Below the pieces are notes generated by a model, which saw nothing but the letters and a program-made list of their open reading frames with translations, was not told where the DNA came from and did no database searches. Of a DNA stretch of 55,927 nucleotides, positions 2,859-54,589 are shown piece by piece. The stretch lies in sequence record OZ035768.1. One strand, given 5' to 3'. Origin of the DNA: Sashavirus 536P12. A program made the position numbers and the translations under genes. Position 1 is the first letter of the stretch. The number at the start of each line of letters is the position of its first letter.

Positions 2859-2921
2859 TCTCTGTTACCACCAATCACCCGTGGTAAACTGTACAGAACA
2901 GTTACAAACGGACCGACAATC

Positions 2922-4760: not shown

Positions 4761-4848
4761 TATCTGTTAGATTAATGTAACGCGTTTATACTCCTGTAGG
4801 TAACCGATCGGTTACAGTTAATTAACATTCTCTCACAGGAGTTTCAAC

Positions 4849-5526
4849 ATGTCTGACATGACTTTAGTTCCCACTGGCGGTTTCGGCGGTGAAGCTGGCG
4901 CGGCTGCACTTGGCGGTGGCATCGGTGGTCTTATCGGTTCCTGGTTCGGTAACGGTTGGGGTGGCGGTGGTAACTTTGGTGGTCCTGTAGAAGTTCAAGC
5001 CTCTGTAGATACCAACGCTATTCTGCAAGCCATCAATAACGGTGCTCTTCAGACCATTCAGGGTCAGAATGGTACAAACCTGACCGTTGAACGCGCTGCA
5101 GCTTCCACTTTTAACGGTATCACTCAACAGAACACACAAAACCTGCTGGCATCTGTACAAGGTTTTGCAGGTCTGAACACTCAGATTCAGCAGGGTACGA
5201 ACACTGTGACCAATGCGATCTGTGCATCTGAAACTGCGGCACTGACTCGTTCTTTCCAGGCACAGTTAGCGGCTGAGAAGTGTTGCTGCGAAACCAACCT
5301 GAATATCGAACGTCAGGCAGAAGCAACTCGTGCACTGATCCGTGATCAGTTCGCACAGTCTCAGGCTGTTCTGATTTGTGACCTGAAATCTCAGATTCAA
5401 ACCCGTGACTTCCAGTTGTCTCAATTGTCACAAACGTCTCAGTTGGCGTGCAAAATTAACCAGGTCGATCAGCTTATTAACTTCAAGCTGCCTACTCCGC
5501 AAACTCCACCGACTGGCTGCTGCTAA
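4849..5526 (+). CDS. Gly-rich / glycine-zipper N-terminus, Gln/Thr-rich, Cys-containing protein of unknown function
   Basis: 225 aa; N-terminal GGFGGEAGAAALGGGIGGLIGSWFGNGWGGGGNFGG, internal CCC, C-terminal GCC; strong SD AGGAG; first gene after TerL terminator. Confidence 0.6.
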   Translation: MSDMTLVPTGGFGGEAGAAALGGGIGGLIGSWFGNGWGGGGNFGGPVEVQASVDTNAILQAINNGALQTIQGQNGTNLTVERAAASTFNGITQQNTQNLLASVQGFAGLNTQIQQGTNTVTNAICASETAALTRSFQAQLAAEKCCCETNLNIERQAEATRALIRDQFAQSQAVLICDLKSQIQTRDFQLSQLSQTSQLACKINQVDQLINFKLPTPQTPPTGCC

Positions 5527-9235: not shown

Positions 9236-9305
9236 CACCGTGCAAAAAAACCATCACTGATATAACATACGTTAAGAACCGTAAACCGTATGGAGCCTGT
9301 AGAAC

Positions 9306-10664: not shown

Positions 10665-10697
10665 AAAAAGGGACCAGAAACGGTCCCTTAATTTTTA
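10665..10697. terminator. bidirectional rho-independent terminator
   Basis: AGGGACCAGAAACGGTCCCT hairpin flanked by an A-run and a T-run between convergent genes. Confidence 0.7.
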
Positions 10698-12524: not shown

Positions 12525-12554
12525 TGTTTGATTCCTCAGTGTGTTTCGTTCGTG

Positions 12555-13788: not shown

Positions 13789-13830
13789 ACGTGATATAAT
13801 CGGCCTCAGTGTGTTAACTGAGGCTTTTTT
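13789..13830 (+). promoter_or_regulatory. extended -10 promoter plus palindromic hairpin element abutting the start codon
   Basis: TGaTATAAT at 13792-13800; palindrome GCCTCAG-N8-CTGAGGC (13803-13824) followed by T6 and the ATG at 13831; the GAGG inside the 3' arm is the only SD-like sequence. Confidence 0.45.
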
Positions 13831-14790
13831 ATGGCTACTAAAGACCCATACCCGGATATTTCAGACAAGTATGACGCTCGTATTCGCGAAGCACTTGATA
13901 TTGTGTGGGAAAACGTGCGTCGTAGTGAGTCGTTAGCTAACCTGGAATACATCATTGAAACTCAGGGTATTGCCGGACTACTCCCCATTCTTGAAACACT
14001 TCCTGATGAACTTAGTGCACAGTTGCGCCCGGTTATTGAAGACGCGATCGCCGAATCAGGTCGTATAGTCGTTCAGGTTTTACCGAAAGCGGCTGTGACA
14101 GGTCCGGTTGTGTTCAGTCTGGTCACCCCACAGGTCAGTACATACATCAACAACTATGTCGGACAACTGATCCGTGAAGTCAGTGATGAAACAGTCAAAG
14201 CTGTTCAGATTGCAGTTAACCAGGGTGTGGTAACCGGACGAAATCCGCGTCAGATAGCCCGTGATTTTCGATCATCAATAGGGTTAACCACACGGCAGGA
14301 AATGACGGTTCAACGTCTGCGATCAGCACTGGAAAAAGGTGAATCAGGTTATGTGAACAGTCTGACCACAGTTACAGACAGTGCGAAGAACGCTGTAAGT
14401 GCCGGGAAACTATCACAGGCGAAGATTGACCAGATAATCGAACAGACACGCTTGCGTTACGTAAAACAGCGCACAGAGACAATAGCGCGTACTGAATCAC
14501 TTCGTGCTGTATCCGTTGGTCAGGACCAGGCTATTCGTCAGGGTCAGGTTACGGGGTCGATCAGTAATGAATTATTAAAACGTTGGTTGTACAGGAAGGA
14601 TGGTCGGACACGTGACGCGCATATTTCCACAGGTGAAACGAATGGCTGGATACCAATGGACAGACCGTTTTCAACGCCGTTAGGACCACTTATGTTTCCT
14701 CGTGATCCTAACGGTAGTGCCGCGAATGTGATTAATTGCCGTTGCCGGGTACAGTACAGTTTGCCGGAAGATATTGGTTCGTTTGGTTAA
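13831..14790 (+). CDS. minor head protein (Mu F-like / SPP1 gp7-like head morphogenesis protein)
   Basis: 319 aa; C-terminal NCRCRV motif characteristic of the family. Confidence 0.65.
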   Translation: MATKDPYPDISDKYDARIREALDIVWENVRRSESLANLEYIIETQGIAGLLPILETLPDELSAQLRPVIEDAIAESGRIVVQVLPKAAVTGPVVFSLVTPQVSTYINNYVGQLIREVSDETVKAVQIAVNQGVVTGRNPRQIARDFRSSIGLTTRQEMTVQRLRSALEKGESGYVNSLTTVTDSAKNAVSAGKLSQAKIDQIIEQTRLRYVKQRTETIARTESLRAVSVGQDQAIRQGQVTGSISNELLKRWLYRKDGRTRDAHISTGETNGWIPMDRPFSTPLGPLMFPRDPNGSAANVINCRCRVQYSLPEDIGSFG

Positions 14791-17409: not shown

Positions 17410-18674
17410 TGCGTACAGATGGTACTAATCATTTACGCCGCGCTAAATCGATGAAGATCGGTTTTCTGTCCGGCGTGACAAAACCTGCTCACGAGGGGGC
17501 AAACGCTCTTGTTCTTAAATCACATTCAGAACCGCCTGCTGTTGTTCTTTTAAAGTCAACATTTAGTGCAGCACTGGCTGAAAAAGAACTTGAACAGAAA
17601 GTTCGCGATTTCCTCTCTAATTCGTGGATGTTGAATGATGCGCTTTATGAAGCAGCAGAGGATATTGCAAAAGATGATTCTATTACCGATAAACAAGCAG
17701 CATTGCGTGACGCGGTAAATGAATATATTATAACGTTGCAACAGGCCGCTGGTATTTCGCTGAATAAAGCGAAAGGTGGTAAAACTGAAGGCGGTGAAGT
17801 TTTCCCGGCATCTGATTATGCATATGTACCAGATCCAGAAAAACCTTCAACCTGGAAACTTCGTTTAACAGCTACCCCTGGCGGTGAACCTGATGCGCGT
17901 ATTGTAGGCGCTGCACTTGCTGCATTAGGTCCGGGTTATCGCGGTAACAAAGTTGAAATCCCTGAAGCCGATTTAGCAGGTGTGAAAAACAAAGTCCGAT
18001 CCGCGTGGAAAAAATTACACCCGGACCAGGAAGTACCTCAAGTTTTAAAAACGGCAGAGGAAATCGAAATGTCCGAACTGGAACTGGAAAAATACAAAGC
18101 CCTGGCTGAGATGAACGACGTCCATAAGGCGTATCATAATTCTCTGCCTGAATCTGATCAGGAAGCATTCCGTAAAATGGATGCGACTGCTCGCGATGCC
18201 CTCGTGACGATGGCTAAACAGGCTGATGAATCGTTTACCACGATTGCGGGTCAGGTTGTTCAGAAATCTGTAGCTGGTCCGATGTATGACGTTCTGAAAT
18301 CTCAGGACGAACAACTTCGCAAAGCTCAGACTGAAGCGGCACTGGCGAAAGCTAAAGAAACCGTGAACACTGATTTCGCACATATTCCGGGTGAAATGGT
18401 ACAGAAAACCCAGATGGTCATGACTCTTGATCGTTTACCGGAAGCGGATCGTAACTTCCTGGTTGAAAAACTCAAACAGGCCGACGAACTCTGGAAAGCA
18501 CGTAAAGAACCAGCCGCGCCGAACGGCAGTGGTAAAGGTTCCAGTGCACTGGAAGACATGATTAACGAATGGCTGAAAGCAAATCCGGGTAAAACACGCA
18601 CCCAGGCTATGCAAGCTATTTCTGCAACTAAAAAAGGTCAGGAAGCAATCGAAGCGATGCGAGGTGACGAATAA
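17409..18674 (+). CDS. scaffolding protein candidate
   Basis: 421 aa, Ala/Glu/Lys-rich with helical/coiled-coil character; upstream of decoration and major capsid genes. Confidence 0.5.
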   Translation: MRTDGTNHLRRAKSMKIGFLSGVTKPAHEGANALVLKSHSEPPAVVLLKSTFSAALAEKELEQKVRDFLSNSWMLNDALYEAAEDIAKDDSITDKQAALRDAVNEYIITLQQAAGISLNKAKGGKTEGGEVFPASDYAYVPDPEKPSTWKLRLTATPGGEPDARIVGAALAALGPGYRGNKVEIPEADLAGVKNKVRSAWKKLHPDQEVPQVLKTAEEIEMSELELEKYKALAEMNDVHKAYHNSLPESDQEAFRKMDATARDALVTMAKQADESFTTIAGQVVQKSVAGPMYDVLKSQDEQLRKAQTEAALAKAKETVNTDFAHIPGEMVQKTQMVMTLDRLPEADRNFLVEKLKQADELWKARKEPAAPNGSGKGSSALEDMINEWLKANPGKTRTQAMQAISATKKGQEAIEAMRGDE

Positions 18675-20110: not shown

Positions 20111-20130
20111 TAACAACTGTGGTATTATTA

Positions 20131-20158
20131 AGGGGTGGCTTGTGCTGCCCCTTTTTTT
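20131..20158 (+). terminator. rho-independent terminator after major capsid gene
   Basis: AGGGGTGGCTTGTGCTGCCCCT hairpin plus T7. Confidence 0.7.
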
Positions 20159-51455: not shown

Positions 51456-51493
51456 AATAATTCTTGACAGATTACCAACCCTCCCCGATAATT
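51452..51493 (+). promoter_or_regulatory. conserved promoter element (P14, + orientation)
   Basis: TTAAAATAATTCTTGACAGATTACCA; -35 TTGACA 51464-51469, 17-nt spacer, -10 GATAAT 51487-51492. Confidence 0.7.
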
Positions 51494-51518
51494 AGCCTCA
51501 GTTAACACACATGAGGCT
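51494..51518. promoter_or_regulatory. palindromic element AGCCTCA-N11-TGAGGCT at the transcription start region (operator or leader hairpin candidate)
   Basis: inverted repeat directly visible; near reverse complement of the element at 13803-13824; GAGG in its 3' arm is the SD for the ATG at 51527. Confidence 0.45.
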
Positions 51519-51526
51519 AAACACAA

Positions 51527-51622
51527 ATGGCTAACATTAACTCCCTTCGCAAGCTATCTGATACCGATAAAACCAATGTAAAACGTGGTAATGCGTATCA
51601 TCAAGATTCGTCCAGGGCATAA
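51527..51622 (+). CDS. small ORF (31 aa) downstream of P14
   Basis: ATG 51527 nine nt after GAGG; stop TAA at 51620-51622. Confidence 0.25.
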   Translation: MANINSLRKLSDTDKTNVKRGNAYHQDSSRA

Positions 51623-51894
51623 CCCACGCGGTGAATGGTCTGTAACCCGTTCGGAAAGTGGTAAAGTCCTGGTTGAACTTACCACTGAACAGTTCGAAGC
51701 GTTAAAAGCACTGAAGGAGCACCAGTTATGAAAACTATGTCAGACAACTTAACATCAATTTACGGTACGTTGACCTGTCGTTCTAAATTTAAACCGTTGA
51801 CAAAAGAAGAAGAACGTCAGTGTAAGTTTAATAACAGTTTTCCCAGCGTTAATGAAAATCGTTGGATTGCCAAACTGACCGGGAGTAAAAAGAA

Positions 51895-54558: not shown

Positions 54559-54584
54559 CAAAAAAGCGGGGCTAACTACCCCGC
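54559..54584. terminator. bidirectional terminator hairpin
   Basis: AAAAAA + GCGGGGCTAACTACCCCGC between convergent genes. Confidence 0.6.
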
Positions 54585-54589
54585 TATCT

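What the first reader, a model, noticed from the sequence alone, without database searches (positions are those of the whole stretch)
13789..13830. Palindromic GCCTCAG...CTGAGGC element at two promoters, in opposite orientation
At 13803-13824 (before the MuF-like gene) and 51494-51518 (after P14) nearly the same palindrome occurs as reverse complements, each immediately after a -10 box and 2-8 nt before an ATG, with the only SD-like GAGG inside the 3' arm. It could be an operator for a dimeric regulator, a 5' leader hairpin that occludes the RBS, or at 13803 (which has a T-run) a terminator that gates read-through into the head genes.
Basis: seen in the sequence. Interest (0 to 1): 0.45.

Follow-up and report, generated by a model that had tools for sequence, protein, structure and literature searches.

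The report
Promoter nested inside an RBS-hiding hairpin
In this 9NA-like E. coli phage the same short hairpin sits between the -10 box and the start codon of two genes. It probably blocks expression from upstream read-through RNA while each gene's own promoter starts inside the hairpin and escapes it, a trick already known from phage T4.

Summary
GGCCTCAGT-GTGTTA-ACTGAGGCT (13802-13825) and AGCCTCA-GTTAACACACA-TGAGGCT (51494-51518) are the only two such palindromes in the window. Each starts 2 nt after a -10 box, carries the only GAGG in its 3' arm, and ends 5-8 nt before an ATG.

The window is a 9NA-like (Nonanavirus/Sashavirus) E. coli siphovirus. Both elements are conserved in E. coli, Salmonella and Klebsiella relatives. 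In Vibrio relatives the MuF-gene hairpin keeps its position but has different, compensating arms and a 15-17 nt loop.

The "opposite orientation" is a flipped loop. Relatives carry site 1 in the same orientation as site 2; only the E. coli clade has the loop inverted.

Best reading (confidence about 0.55):
- It is an RNA hairpin that forms only on read-through transcripts.
- At site 1 it is also an intrinsic terminator (T6). At both sites it buries the Shine-Dalgarno sequence.
- The expected start site, 7-8 nt after the -10, is the last base of the 5' arm. Locally started mRNAs therefore lack that arm and are unstructured.
- This is the T4 e/soc/I-TevI logic with sigma-70-type promoters.

An operator, for example for the ParB-HTH protein that relatives encode after site 2, is not excluded. 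No transcript ends have been mapped. The element is ordinary but neat.

The parts
13792..13800 (+). Extended -10 promoter TGaTATAAT of the MuF-like gene, with no good -35.
   Evidence: Read. TGnTAnnnT is kept before the MuF gene in every lineage examined: E. coli, 9NA, Sasha, Klebsiella-like, Vibrio, L044, L045 and L134, with a weaker form in the Proteus group. The rest of the intergenic region cannot be aligned across these lineages.
13802..13825 (+). Site 1 hairpin GGCCTCAGT-gtgtta-ACTGAGGCT. The 5' arm is 13802-13810, the loop 13811-16, the 3' arm 13817-25. The loop is inverted relative to orthologues.
   Evidence: Centroid structure -15.9 kcal/mol. Scored as terminator-like. Arms are conserved or covary in relatives.
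13808..13808 (+). Predicted transcription start: A, the 8th nt after the -10, preceded by C. It is the second-last base of the 9-nt 5' arm (13802-13810), which corresponds to the last base of the 7-nt core arm.
   Evidence: Inference from promoter geometry. A CA dinucleotide sits at nt 6-7 or 7-8 after the -10 in all lineages. No experimental mapping exists.
13820..13823 (+). Shine-Dalgarno GAGG inside the 3' arm, 7 nt before the ATG.
   Evidence: The Sasha record annotates the RBS inside the annotated terminator.
13825..13830 (+). T6 run, the terminator tail, which also serves as the SD-ATG spacer.
   Evidence: It is T6 in the E. coli clade and 9NA, TTTTCT in Sasha and Klebsiella, and GAATC in L008.
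13831..14790 (+). MuF-like (SPP1 gp7-type) head morphogenesis gene, 319 aa.
   Evidence: PF04233, E = 7.5e-11. GenBank relatives annotate it the same way.
51459..51492 (+). Strong sigma-70-type promoter AATTCTTGACA-17-GATAAT. It belongs to a class of about 12 promoters that share TAAAATAATTCTTGAC(A/G)gATTaC.
   Evidence: 11 of 12 consensus matches. Class defined. Annotated as a promoter in AVIO78A.
51494..51518 (+). Site 2 hairpin AGCCTCA-gttaacacaca-TGAGGCT. It can extend by T-A pairs to 51492-51520. No T-run follows.
   Evidence: -14.5 kcal/mol, z = -4.6. Only two alleles exist across all enteric relatives, differing in 2 adjacent loop bases (AA vs CT).
51500..51500 (+). Predicted transcription start: A, the 8th nt after the -10, and the last base of the 5' arm.
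   Evidence: Inference from geometry. RNA starting here is unstructured: -4.8 kcal/mol with z = +0.7, and 0.0 for the leader alone.
51513..51516 (+). Shine-Dalgarno GAGG inside the 3' arm, 10 nt before the ATG.
51527..51622 (+). 31-aa ORF, the remnant of the ParB-HTH gene that follows this leader in relatives.
   Evidence: BLAST against Bas82 shows a 13-nt and a roughly 540-nt deletion. The intact 255-aa gene is PF17762 HTH_ParB and is present in all other enteric relatives.
12534..12545 (-). Leader of the leftward promoter P12583. It contains AACACACTGAGG, the exact reverse complement of the site-1 5' arm plus loop. This shows that loop plus 3' arm is this phage's usual CA-rich leader plus SD.

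Best explanation
The palindrome encodes an RNA hairpin that insulates a gene from transcription arriving from upstream. The gene's own promoter is nested inside the hairpin and so escapes it.

Shown:
- The 5' arm lies exactly between the -10 hexamer and the expected +1 position.
- The loop plus 3' arm is the gene's short CA-rich leader with its SD.
- The stem ends 0-8 nt before the ATG.

Inferred:
- RNA that starts upstream contains both arms. For site 1 this is the DUF6378-NinH operon; for site 2 it is the primase / P49688 units.
- At site 1 that RNA folds into a 9-pair stem followed by U6 and terminates. Any RNA that reads through has its SD buried.
- At site 2 there is no U-run, so transcription continues, but the SD of the first gene is buried.
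- RNA started at the local promoter begins at the A that closes the 5' arm (A13808, A51500). It lacks that arm, is unstructured and is translated.

The two copies look alike because the 3' arm is the phage's usual SD context (C/A)TGAGG and the 5' arm is its complement. They look 'reverse-complementary' because the 6-nt loop of site 1 was flipped between its perfect arms in the E. coli clade.
For: (1) Geometry is invariant. In E. coli, 9NA, Sasha and Klebsiella-type genomes, at both sites, the -10 is followed by exactly 1 nt and then (A/G/T)GCCTCAG. In Vibrio phages the arm abuts the -10. A CA falls at nt 6-8 after the -10 everywhere.

(2) Energies. With the 5' arm, folds are -12 to -22 kcal/mol. 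From the predicted +1 they are 0 to -4 kcal/mol.

(3) Pairing, not sequence, is kept across lineages. The arm pairs are AGCCTCA/TGAGGCT, AGCCGCA/TGCGGCT and GGCTGCA/TGCAGCC. Three of 7 pairs change on both sides, 97.6% of cells are paired, and slid registers give 24-47%.

(4) The departures are G.U wobbles in the sense strand: 9NA U.G, the E. coli clade's outer G.U, and variant L138. In the antisense strand or as half-sites these would be mismatches.

(5) Loop length varies from 6 to 17 nt. The spacing of the GCCTCA/TGAGGC cores is 10 at site 1 and 11 at site 2 in the same genome.

(6) Where upstream genes are divergent (Proteus PM-CJR group) there is an extended -10 but no hairpin. Where a canonical terminator precedes the promoter (L134, L044, L045) the wrapped hairpin is weak or absent.

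(7) Site 1 scores as an intrinsic terminator and is annotated as one in Sasha.

(8) Precedent. In T4 e, soc, I-TevI, segB and Aeh1 mobE, long transcripts sequester the RBS, while late promoters placed in the 5' strand of the structure give translatable RNA (PMC3014915, PMC2988022).

(9) Loop flip. The flipped loop TAACAC matches 4 of 6 loop positions in the orthologue L008 (AATCAC; aligned by eye), against 0 of 6 unflipped. With its two closing pairs (GTTAACACAC) it matches site 2 at 10 of 10, against 4 of 10 unflipped. All E. coli-clade genomes carry the flip.
Against: - No transcript 5' or 3' ends are available for any 9NA-like phage. The start sites are inferred from promoter geometry only.
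- Within the enteric phages the arms are invariant at both sites. Structure alone does not require that. I attribute it to the SD, but a sequence-specific factor would explain it too.
- Palindromic operators also 'covary' on both arms.
- The benefit of silencing the first gene of the site-2 operon on read-through RNA is unclear, because its own promoter is of the same strong class as the upstream ones.
- A generic test for '-10-like hexamer directly before a hairpin' in the window is not enriched: 8 observed against 9 expected.
- The covariation table rests on 6 hand-extracted arm types.
- The correlation with upstream gene orientation has only one negative lineage.
Confidence: 0.55

Rival explanations
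1. DNA operator. A dimeric phage regulator binds the inverted repeat, which spans about -5 to +18 of both promoters, and represses them. The obvious candidate is the ParB-HTH protein encoded right after site 2 in relatives. That would be autoregulation plus control of MuF.
For: - The palindrome overlaps +1 at two promoters and nowhere else.
- The arms are sequence-invariant at both sites in all genomes that encode ParB, while flanks and loops drift.
- Site 2 directly precedes an HTH_ParB gene.
- A symmetric dimer would tolerate the loop flip.
- T4 I-TevI combines an operator with an RBS hairpin (PMC2988022).
Against: - Half-site spacing differs by 1 bp between the two sites of one genome, and is 15-17 bp in Vibrio phages.
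- 9NA has a core substitution in one half-site only, and it is a G.U in RNA.
- ParB-less relatives (Vibrio phages, L044) keep a hairpin at the same place with other arms.
- The window phage has lost ParB but keeps both palindromes intact.
- ParB and KorB sites are contiguous 13-16 bp palindromes, not 7-9 bp arms split by 6-11 nt (own knowledge).
Confidence: 0.15
2. Plain terminator or attenuator, with no internal promoter. The -10-like box at site 1 is fortuitous. MuF is made from transcripts that read through the hairpin, which simply sets the level of read-through and stabilises the 3' end of the upstream mRNA. The site 2 hairpin is a 3'-end or processing structure for upstream RNA.
For: - Site 1 has the canonical terminator anatomy and is annotated as a terminator.
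- The -35 at site 1 is poor.
- Hairpins after -10-like hexamers are not enriched genome-wide.
Against: - TGnTAnnnT is conserved before the MuF gene in lineages with 38-57% protein identity. These include lineages where the terminator lies upstream of it (L134, L044) and lineages with no co-directional upstream gene (Proteus).
- The T-run is lost in L008 and absent in Vibrio phages and at site 2.
- The site 2 promoter belongs to a 12-member conserved class.
Confidence: 0.2
3. Recombination or mobile-element scar. The two inverted copies are ends of an invertible or mobile segment, or copies of a REP/MITE-like palindromic element.
For: The two near-identical copies are in inverted orientation about 37.7 kb apart.
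Against: - Orthologues in 9NA, Sasha and Klebsiella phages have the two sites in the same orientation, so the inversion is confined to the 6-nt loop.
- Gene order between the sites is conserved with relatives.
- There are only two copies, always at the same two promoters.
- There are no target duplications and no associated recombinase.
Confidence: 0.03

Closest known systems
T4-type RBS-sequestering hairpins with an embedded promoter (genes e, soc, 49, I-TevI/II/III, segB; Aeh1 mobE)
   Same: A stable stem buries the SD on long read-through transcripts. A promoter lies in the DNA that encodes the 5' strand, so locally started RNA lacks that strand and is translated (PMC3014915, PMC2988022).
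   Different: - The promoters here are sigma-70-type (an extended -10 at site 1, a full -35/-10 at site 2), not gp55 late promoters (TATAAATA).
- No temporal switch is known.
- The site 1 stem is also followed by a U-run, so it should terminate as well.
- The phage is an unrelated siphovirus.
- Nothing has been mapped experimentally.
Rho-independent (intrinsic) terminators
   Same: Site 1 has a 9-pair GC-rich stem, a 6-nt loop and U6, about 15 nt after the stop codon of a co-directional gene.
   Different: - The 3' arm carries the next gene's SD, and the U-run is the SD-ATG spacer.
- A promoter -10 abuts the 5' arm.
- The U-run is not conserved in all orthologues and is absent at site 2.
Promoter-proximal palindromic operators (lacO-like, centred near +10) and ParB/KorB operators
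   Same: An inverted repeat overlaps +1 of two promoters. One of them precedes an HTH_ParB gene in relatives.
   Different: - The arms are separated by a variable 6-11 nt (15-17 nt in Vibrio relatives).
- Wobble-type asymmetries occur.
- The hairpin is kept, with other arms, in relatives where no ParB homologue was detected.
- No binding protein has been identified.
Small hairpin-loop inversions ('flip-flop' of a loop between perfect inverted repeats, well known in chloroplast non-coding DNA; own knowledge)
   Same: Only the 6-nt loop is reverse-complemented. The arms and flanks are unchanged, and the event is confined to one clade.
   Different: - It is seen here in a phage regulatory hairpin.
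- Ectopic conversion by an inverted copy of site 2 would give the same product and cannot be excluded.

Membership tests
Intrinsic terminator | GC-rich stem of 5-14 pairs with a short loop | tested here: met
   Site 1: 9 pairs, 5 of them GC, 6-nt loop. Site 2: 7-9 pairs with an 11-nt loop, which the scan does not call.
Intrinsic terminator | U-rich tract immediately 3' of the stem | tested here: inconclusive
   Met at site 1 in the window (T6). Weak in Sasha and Klebsiella (TTTTCT). Absent in L008 (GAATC), in Vibrio phages and at site 2 (AAACAC).
Intrinsic terminator | Actual 3' ends or termination in vivo or in vitro | not testable with these tools
   No Term-seq or in vitro data were found for 9NA-like phages.
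T4-type RBS-sequestering hairpin with nested promoter | SD and/or start codon inside a stable stem on the long transcript | tested here: met
   GAGG lies in the 3' arm at both sites, with -15.9 and -14.5 kcal/mol. The same holds in all enteric relatives. In Vibrio phages the SD is paired in the extended stem and the 3' arm abuts the AUG.
T4-type RBS-sequestering hairpin with nested promoter | Promoter placed so that its transcripts lack the 5' strand | tested here: inconclusive
   The geometry fits in every lineage: the 5' arm fills nt 1-8 after a conserved -10. The start sites are predicted, not mapped.
T4-type RBS-sequestering hairpin with nested promoter | Co-directional upstream transcription that reads into the gene | tested here: met
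   Upstream ORFs are co-directional at both sites. Promoter P49688 lies upstream of site 2. In the Proteus lineage the upstream genes are divergent and there is no hairpin. Read-through RNA itself was not observed.
T4-type RBS-sequestering hairpin with nested promoter | Different translation from long and short transcripts | not testable with these tools
   Needs reporter fusions or ribosome profiling.
Dimeric-repressor operator | Inverted half-sites at fixed spacing | tested here: not met
   The spacing of the GCCTCA/TGAGGC cores is 10 at site 1 and 11 at site 2 in the window and in Klebsiella types, and 11 at Sasha site 1. Vibrio arms are 15-17 nt apart.
Dimeric-repressor operator | Cognate DNA-binding protein encoded by the phage | tested here: inconclusive
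   An HTH_ParB protein follows site 2 in relatives. It is deleted in the window, and tblastn found no homologue in Vibrio or Proteus relatives that keep a site-1 hairpin or promoter.
ParB parS / KorB operator | Contiguous 13-16 bp perfect palindrome | tested here: not met
   The arms are 7-9 bp and interrupted by 6-11 non-palindromic nt.
Rfam RNA families | Score at or above the gathering threshold of any family | tested here: not met
   The best hits are far below threshold: Spot_42 18 against 80 bits, SNORD10 22 against 37 bits.
Repetitive or mobile palindromic element | Many copies in varied contexts | tested here: not met
   Two copies in the window and two in 9NA, always at the same two promoters.

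The most novel reading that the evidence does not exclude
The invariant AGCCTCAG/CTGAGGCT arms are a shared recognition site for a phage factor, most plausibly the ParB-HTH protein encoded after site 2, acting on DNA or on the folded read-through RNA. The MuF head-assembly gene and the parB operon would then form a small regulon layered on top of the hairpin and nested-promoter design. The window phage, which has lost ParB, would be a natural deregulated mutant.
Probability: 0.15. Interest if true: 0.5.

Novelty: new member of a known kind. Interest (0 to 1): 0.3.

Why it matters
Little is known about gene regulation in 9NA-like phages. Their isolated structural genes (terminase, portal, MuF) sit between islands of small genes that are driven by strong sigma-70 promoters. 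A hairpin that stops or silences incoming transcripts, while a promoter nested in its 5' arm restarts expression, would explain how a head gene is kept independent of its neighbours within 40 nt of DNA. It would also extend the T4 "RBS sequestered on long transcripts" principle to a host-RNAP-dependent siphovirus.

The practical consequences are modest. Annotation pipelines call this site a terminator in one genome and a promoter in another, and it is probably both. The loop flip is a clean small example of hairpin-mediated micro-inversion in a phage.

Tried and rejected
- Rfam scan of both sites found nothing near threshold.
- A generic genome-wide test for a hairpin starting 0-2 nt after a loose -10-like hexamer showed no enrichment: 8 observed against 9 expected. 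I therefore do not claim a genome-wide design rule.
- Under strict criteria (TGn plus at least 5 of 6), 2 of 26 boxes are followed by strong hairpins (13792 and 20120). The -10 at 20120 is not conserved in Klebsiella-type relatives, so it is reported only in passing.
- Searches for third copies or lone half-sites in the window and in 9NA found none beyond chance.
- The 5'-terminal stabilising hairpin idea is rejected. The 5' arm starts 2 nt after the -10, so it cannot be transcribed from that promoter.
- An RNase III site is rejected because the stems are only 7-10 bp (own knowledge of substrate length).
- A bidirectional terminator is rejected. The antisense tails are CGAUUAUAU and AAUUAUCGG, and no convergent gene ends at either site.
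- The gene after the second Vibrio module (L027 5689) is unrelated to the window's gene at 4849 and to ParB.
- MAFFT could not register the Vibrio 3' arms with the enteric ones. The pair counts therefore use hand-extracted 7-nt arms.
- The key genomics paper on 9NA-like phages (Zeng et al. 2019, J Virol) is not held. No transcriptomic study of these phages was found.
- An IMG/VR search with the Proteus MuF protein found nothing.
- Most metagenomic MuF relatives below about 40% identity sit in ordinary operons without this module.

Full report
IDENTITY OF THE WINDOW. The window is 94-99% identical over the tested segments to the E. coli siphoviruses PJ16, AVIO78A, PDP46, BDX09P1 and KarinMuster (Bas82), and about 80% identical to Salmonella phages 9NA, Sasha and SP069 and to several Klebsiella phages. 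It is therefore a 9NA-like phage (Nonanavirus/Sashavirus). The gene after site 1 is a MuF/SPP1-gp7-type head morphogenesis protein (PF04233).

THE OBSERVATION. Read directly, site 1 is TGaTATAAT(13792-13800)-c-GGCCTCAGT-gtgtta-ACTGAGGCT(13802-13825), followed by a T-run to 13830 and ATG at 13831. Site 2 is TTGACA-17-GATAAT(51464-51492)-t-AGCCTCA-gttaacacaca-TGAGGCT(51494-51518)-aaacacaa-ATG(51527). The reverse complement of site 1 equals site 2 except for one extra A and the terminal base.
- The motif GCCTCA-N3-20-TGAGGC occurs twice against 0.03 expected.
- The 7-mer CTGAGGC occurs only within these two elements.
- In 9NA the paired arms are likewise confined to the two homologous sites.

Two details need correcting. 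The ORF after site 2 is only 31 aa here. Comparison with Bas82 shows that a 13-nt and a roughly 540-nt deletion have removed most of a 255-aa HTH_ParB gene that all other enteric relatives retain. The MuF gene is the last gene of a short rightward unit, and the next genes are on the opposite strand. Nothing is therefore being gated "into the head genes".

CONSERVATION AT SITE 1. I collected the MuF upstream region from IMG/VR, GenBank and metagenomes. An extended -10 (TGnTAnnnT) precedes the gene in every lineage, although the intergenic DNA is otherwise unalignable. The lineages differ as follows.
- E. coli, 9NA, Sasha, Klebsiella-type and L008 genomes: the -10 is followed by exactly one nucleotide and then (A/G/T)GCCTCAG...CTGAGGCT. 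Loops differ: GTGTTA, AACTCT, TACCACG, TAACCACG, AATCAC.
- T-run: T6 in the E. coli clade and 9NA, TTTTCT in Sasha and Klebsiella types, GAATC in L008.
- Vibrio lentus phages: TGcTACAAT|AGCCGCA-(15-17 nt containing GGAG or GAG)-TGCGGCT|ATG.
- Vibrio phage VpaJT_1: TGcTATACT|GGCTGCA-16-TGCAGCC|aATG.
- L044 (52% MuF identity): a canonical terminator, then TGgTATACT, then a weaker bulged hairpin.
- L134 and L045: a terminator-like hairpin upstream of the -10 and no strong hairpin after it.
- Proteus PM-CJR group: the upstream genes are divergent, and there is an extended -10-like box but no hairpin.

CONSERVATION AT SITE 2. Only two alleles exist. One is GATAATtAGCCTCAGTTAACACACATGAGGCT (E. coli clade, Sasha, 9NA). 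The other is CATAATcAGCCTCAGTTACTACACATGAGGCT (SP069, Klebsiella types). The promoter belongs to a class of about 12 in the window that share TAAAATAATTCTTGAC(A/G)gATTaC. It is the only member of that class with a hairpin at +1. The module stays with the promoter rather than with parB. Bas82 and SP069 have an extra 76-aa ORF between the leader and parB, and the window keeps the module without parB.

THE "OPPOSITE ORIENTATION". In all non-E. coli relatives the site-1 loop reads in the same sense as site 2 (GT(T)AAC/TAC..CAC). The window's loop GTGTTA is the reverse complement of TAACAC.
- Flipped, the loop matches 4 of 6 positions of L008's loop (AATCAC; aligned by eye). With its closing pairs it matches site 2 at 10 of 10.
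- Unflipped, the figures are 0 of 6 and 4 of 10.
- All five GenBank E. coli phages and the IMG/VR E. coli-type contigs carry the flip.
This is a micro-inversion of a loop between perfect arms, or an equivalent conversion by an inverted copy of site 2. It is not a regulatory orientation signal.

WHY THE TWO COPIES RESEMBLE EACH OTHER. The leaders of this phage's promoters are CA-rich and end in (C)TGAGG. The leader of P12583 contains AACACACTGAGG, the exact reverse complement of the site-1 5' arm plus loop. "Loop plus 3' arm" is therefore the phage's ordinary leader plus SD, and the 5' arm is simply its complement. This explains most of the arm identity and its invariance among the enteric phages. 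In Vibrio phages the SD core sits in the loop, and there the arms are free to differ.

STRUCTURE OR SEQUENCE. On the six distinct 7-nt arm types, 97.6% of cells pair and 3 of 7 pairs change on both sides (A-U to G-C, C-G to U-A, U-A to G-C). Slid registers pair only 24-47%. This table has six rows with hand-extracted arms, so it is indicative only. Palindromic operators would also change on both arms, but three further points favour RNA.
- The only departures are wobbles in the sense strand: U.G in 9NA, the outer G.U in the E. coli clade, and a further G.U in variant L138.
- Loop length ranges from 6 to 17 nt, and core spacing is 10 at site 1 against 11 at site 2 within one genome.
- The hairpin persists, with different arms, in relatives where tblastn detected no ParB homologue.

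MECHANISM. Sigma-70 holoenzyme normally starts 7 (6-9) nt after the -10 hexamer and prefers a purine preceded by a pyrimidine (established knowledge). In every lineage a CA lies at nt 6-7 or 7-8 after the -10, and that A is the last base of the 7-nt core 5' arm (A13808, A51500). RNA from the local promoter therefore cannot contain the 5' arm. It folds at 0 to -4 kcal/mol, against -12 to -22 kcal/mol for RNA that includes the arm. The longer predicted own-promoter leaders (13808-13860, 51500-51560) fold no more stably than dinucleotide shuffles (z = +1.2 and +0.7).

RNA arriving from upstream contains both arms. At site 1 it meets a textbook intrinsic terminator, which is annotated as such in Sasha. 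At both sites any RNA that continues has GAGG buried. This is the arrangement demonstrated for T4 gene e and I-TevI and inferred for soc, segB and mobE (PMC3014915, PMC2988022). Here it uses sigma-70-type promoters and, at site 1, is combined with termination.

The steps that are shown are the anatomy, the conservation, the covariation and the energetics. The steps that are inferred are the start sites, termination, differential translation and the biological reason for the arrangement.

RIVALS.
- Operator, for example for ParB-HTH (confidence 0.15). It has for it the location over +1, the invariant arms in ParB-encoding phages and the adjacency to parB. It has against it the variable spacing, the wobble asymmetries, the persistence of the hairpin without ParB and the atypical site architecture.
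- Plain terminator or attenuator without an internal promoter (0.2). This is contradicted by the deep conservation of the extended -10, including in lineages where the terminator lies upstream of it or where no upstream transcription exists.
- Recombination or mobile-element scar (0.03). This is contradicted by the same-orientation orthologues and by conserved synteny.

VERDICT. The feature is real and conserved. It is best read as a compact insulator, a promoter nested in an RBS-sequestering hairpin that is also a terminator at site 1. It is a new member of a known regulatory kind, with a small evolutionary curiosity in the loop flip. Interest is modest (0.3). The main uncertainty is the lack of any transcript mapping.

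Noticed in passing
window 51527-51731: The HTH_ParB gene (255 aa in Bas82, AVIO78A, Sasha, 9NA and others) is reduced here to a 31-aa ORF by a 13-nt and a roughly 540-nt deletion. This phage appears to be a natural parB-like deletion mutant. Bas82 and SP069 instead carry an extra 76-aa ORF between the leader and parB.
   Followed up: partly
window 1029, 2840, 4725, 9218, 12583, 16259, 16570, 24508, 26452, 44222, 49688, 51459 (both strands): About 12 promoters share an extended conserved motif TAAAATAATTCTTGAC(A/G)gATTaC-N-(-10): 13 matches against 1.8 expected. The same class is present in 9NA (9 copies). They drive both the small-gene islands and the capsid operon.
   Followed up: partly
window 20120-20157: After the major capsid gene lies TGTGgTATTAT-t-AAGGGGTGGC-ttgt-GCTGCCCCTT-T7. 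This is an extended -10 abutting a strong terminator, the same build as site 1. The hairpin is conserved everywhere. The -10 is conserved only in the E. coli and 9NA clades, not in Klebsiella types.
   Followed up: partly
window 2864-2890 and 9258-9295: The terminase-large and portal genes are also preceded by extended -10-like boxes without a -35: TGgTAAACT and TGaTATAAC. Each has an adjacent short inverted repeat: GTTACCAC/GTGGTAAC overlapping the box, and ATACG/CGTAT right after it and abutting GGAG. This may be a class of -35-less promoters for the isolated structural genes.
   Followed up: no
window 4800-4815 and 18539-18554: Two perfect 16-bp palindromes: GTAACCGATCGGTTAC, between promoter P4725 and gene 4849, and TTCCAGTGCACTGGAA, inside a coding region. 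About 0.85 are expected by chance. The first is not conserved in 9NA.
   Followed up: no
L027 (Vibrio phage 1.285.O) 5649-5688: A second module of the same build occurs in a distant relative: TGaTATACT|AGCCCT-atcttaaccgac-AGGGCT-TTTTATT-ATG, before an unrelated 247-aa gene. Its loop shares CTTAACCG with that phage's MuF-site loop.
   Followed up: partly
L134 about 1125-1160; L045/L046 about 940-975; L044 about 930-960: In intermediate relatives (51-52% MuF identity) a terminator-like hairpin sits upstream of the extended -10 instead of wrapping the leader. In L134 and L045 its arms begin AGCCGC, as in the Vibrio hairpin. This suggests the nested arrangement evolved from, or into, the ordinary terminator-then-promoter order.
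   Followed up: partly
window 10668-10689 and 54565-54585: These hairpins score as terminators on both strands, so they are likely bidirectional terminators between convergent units.
   Followed up: no
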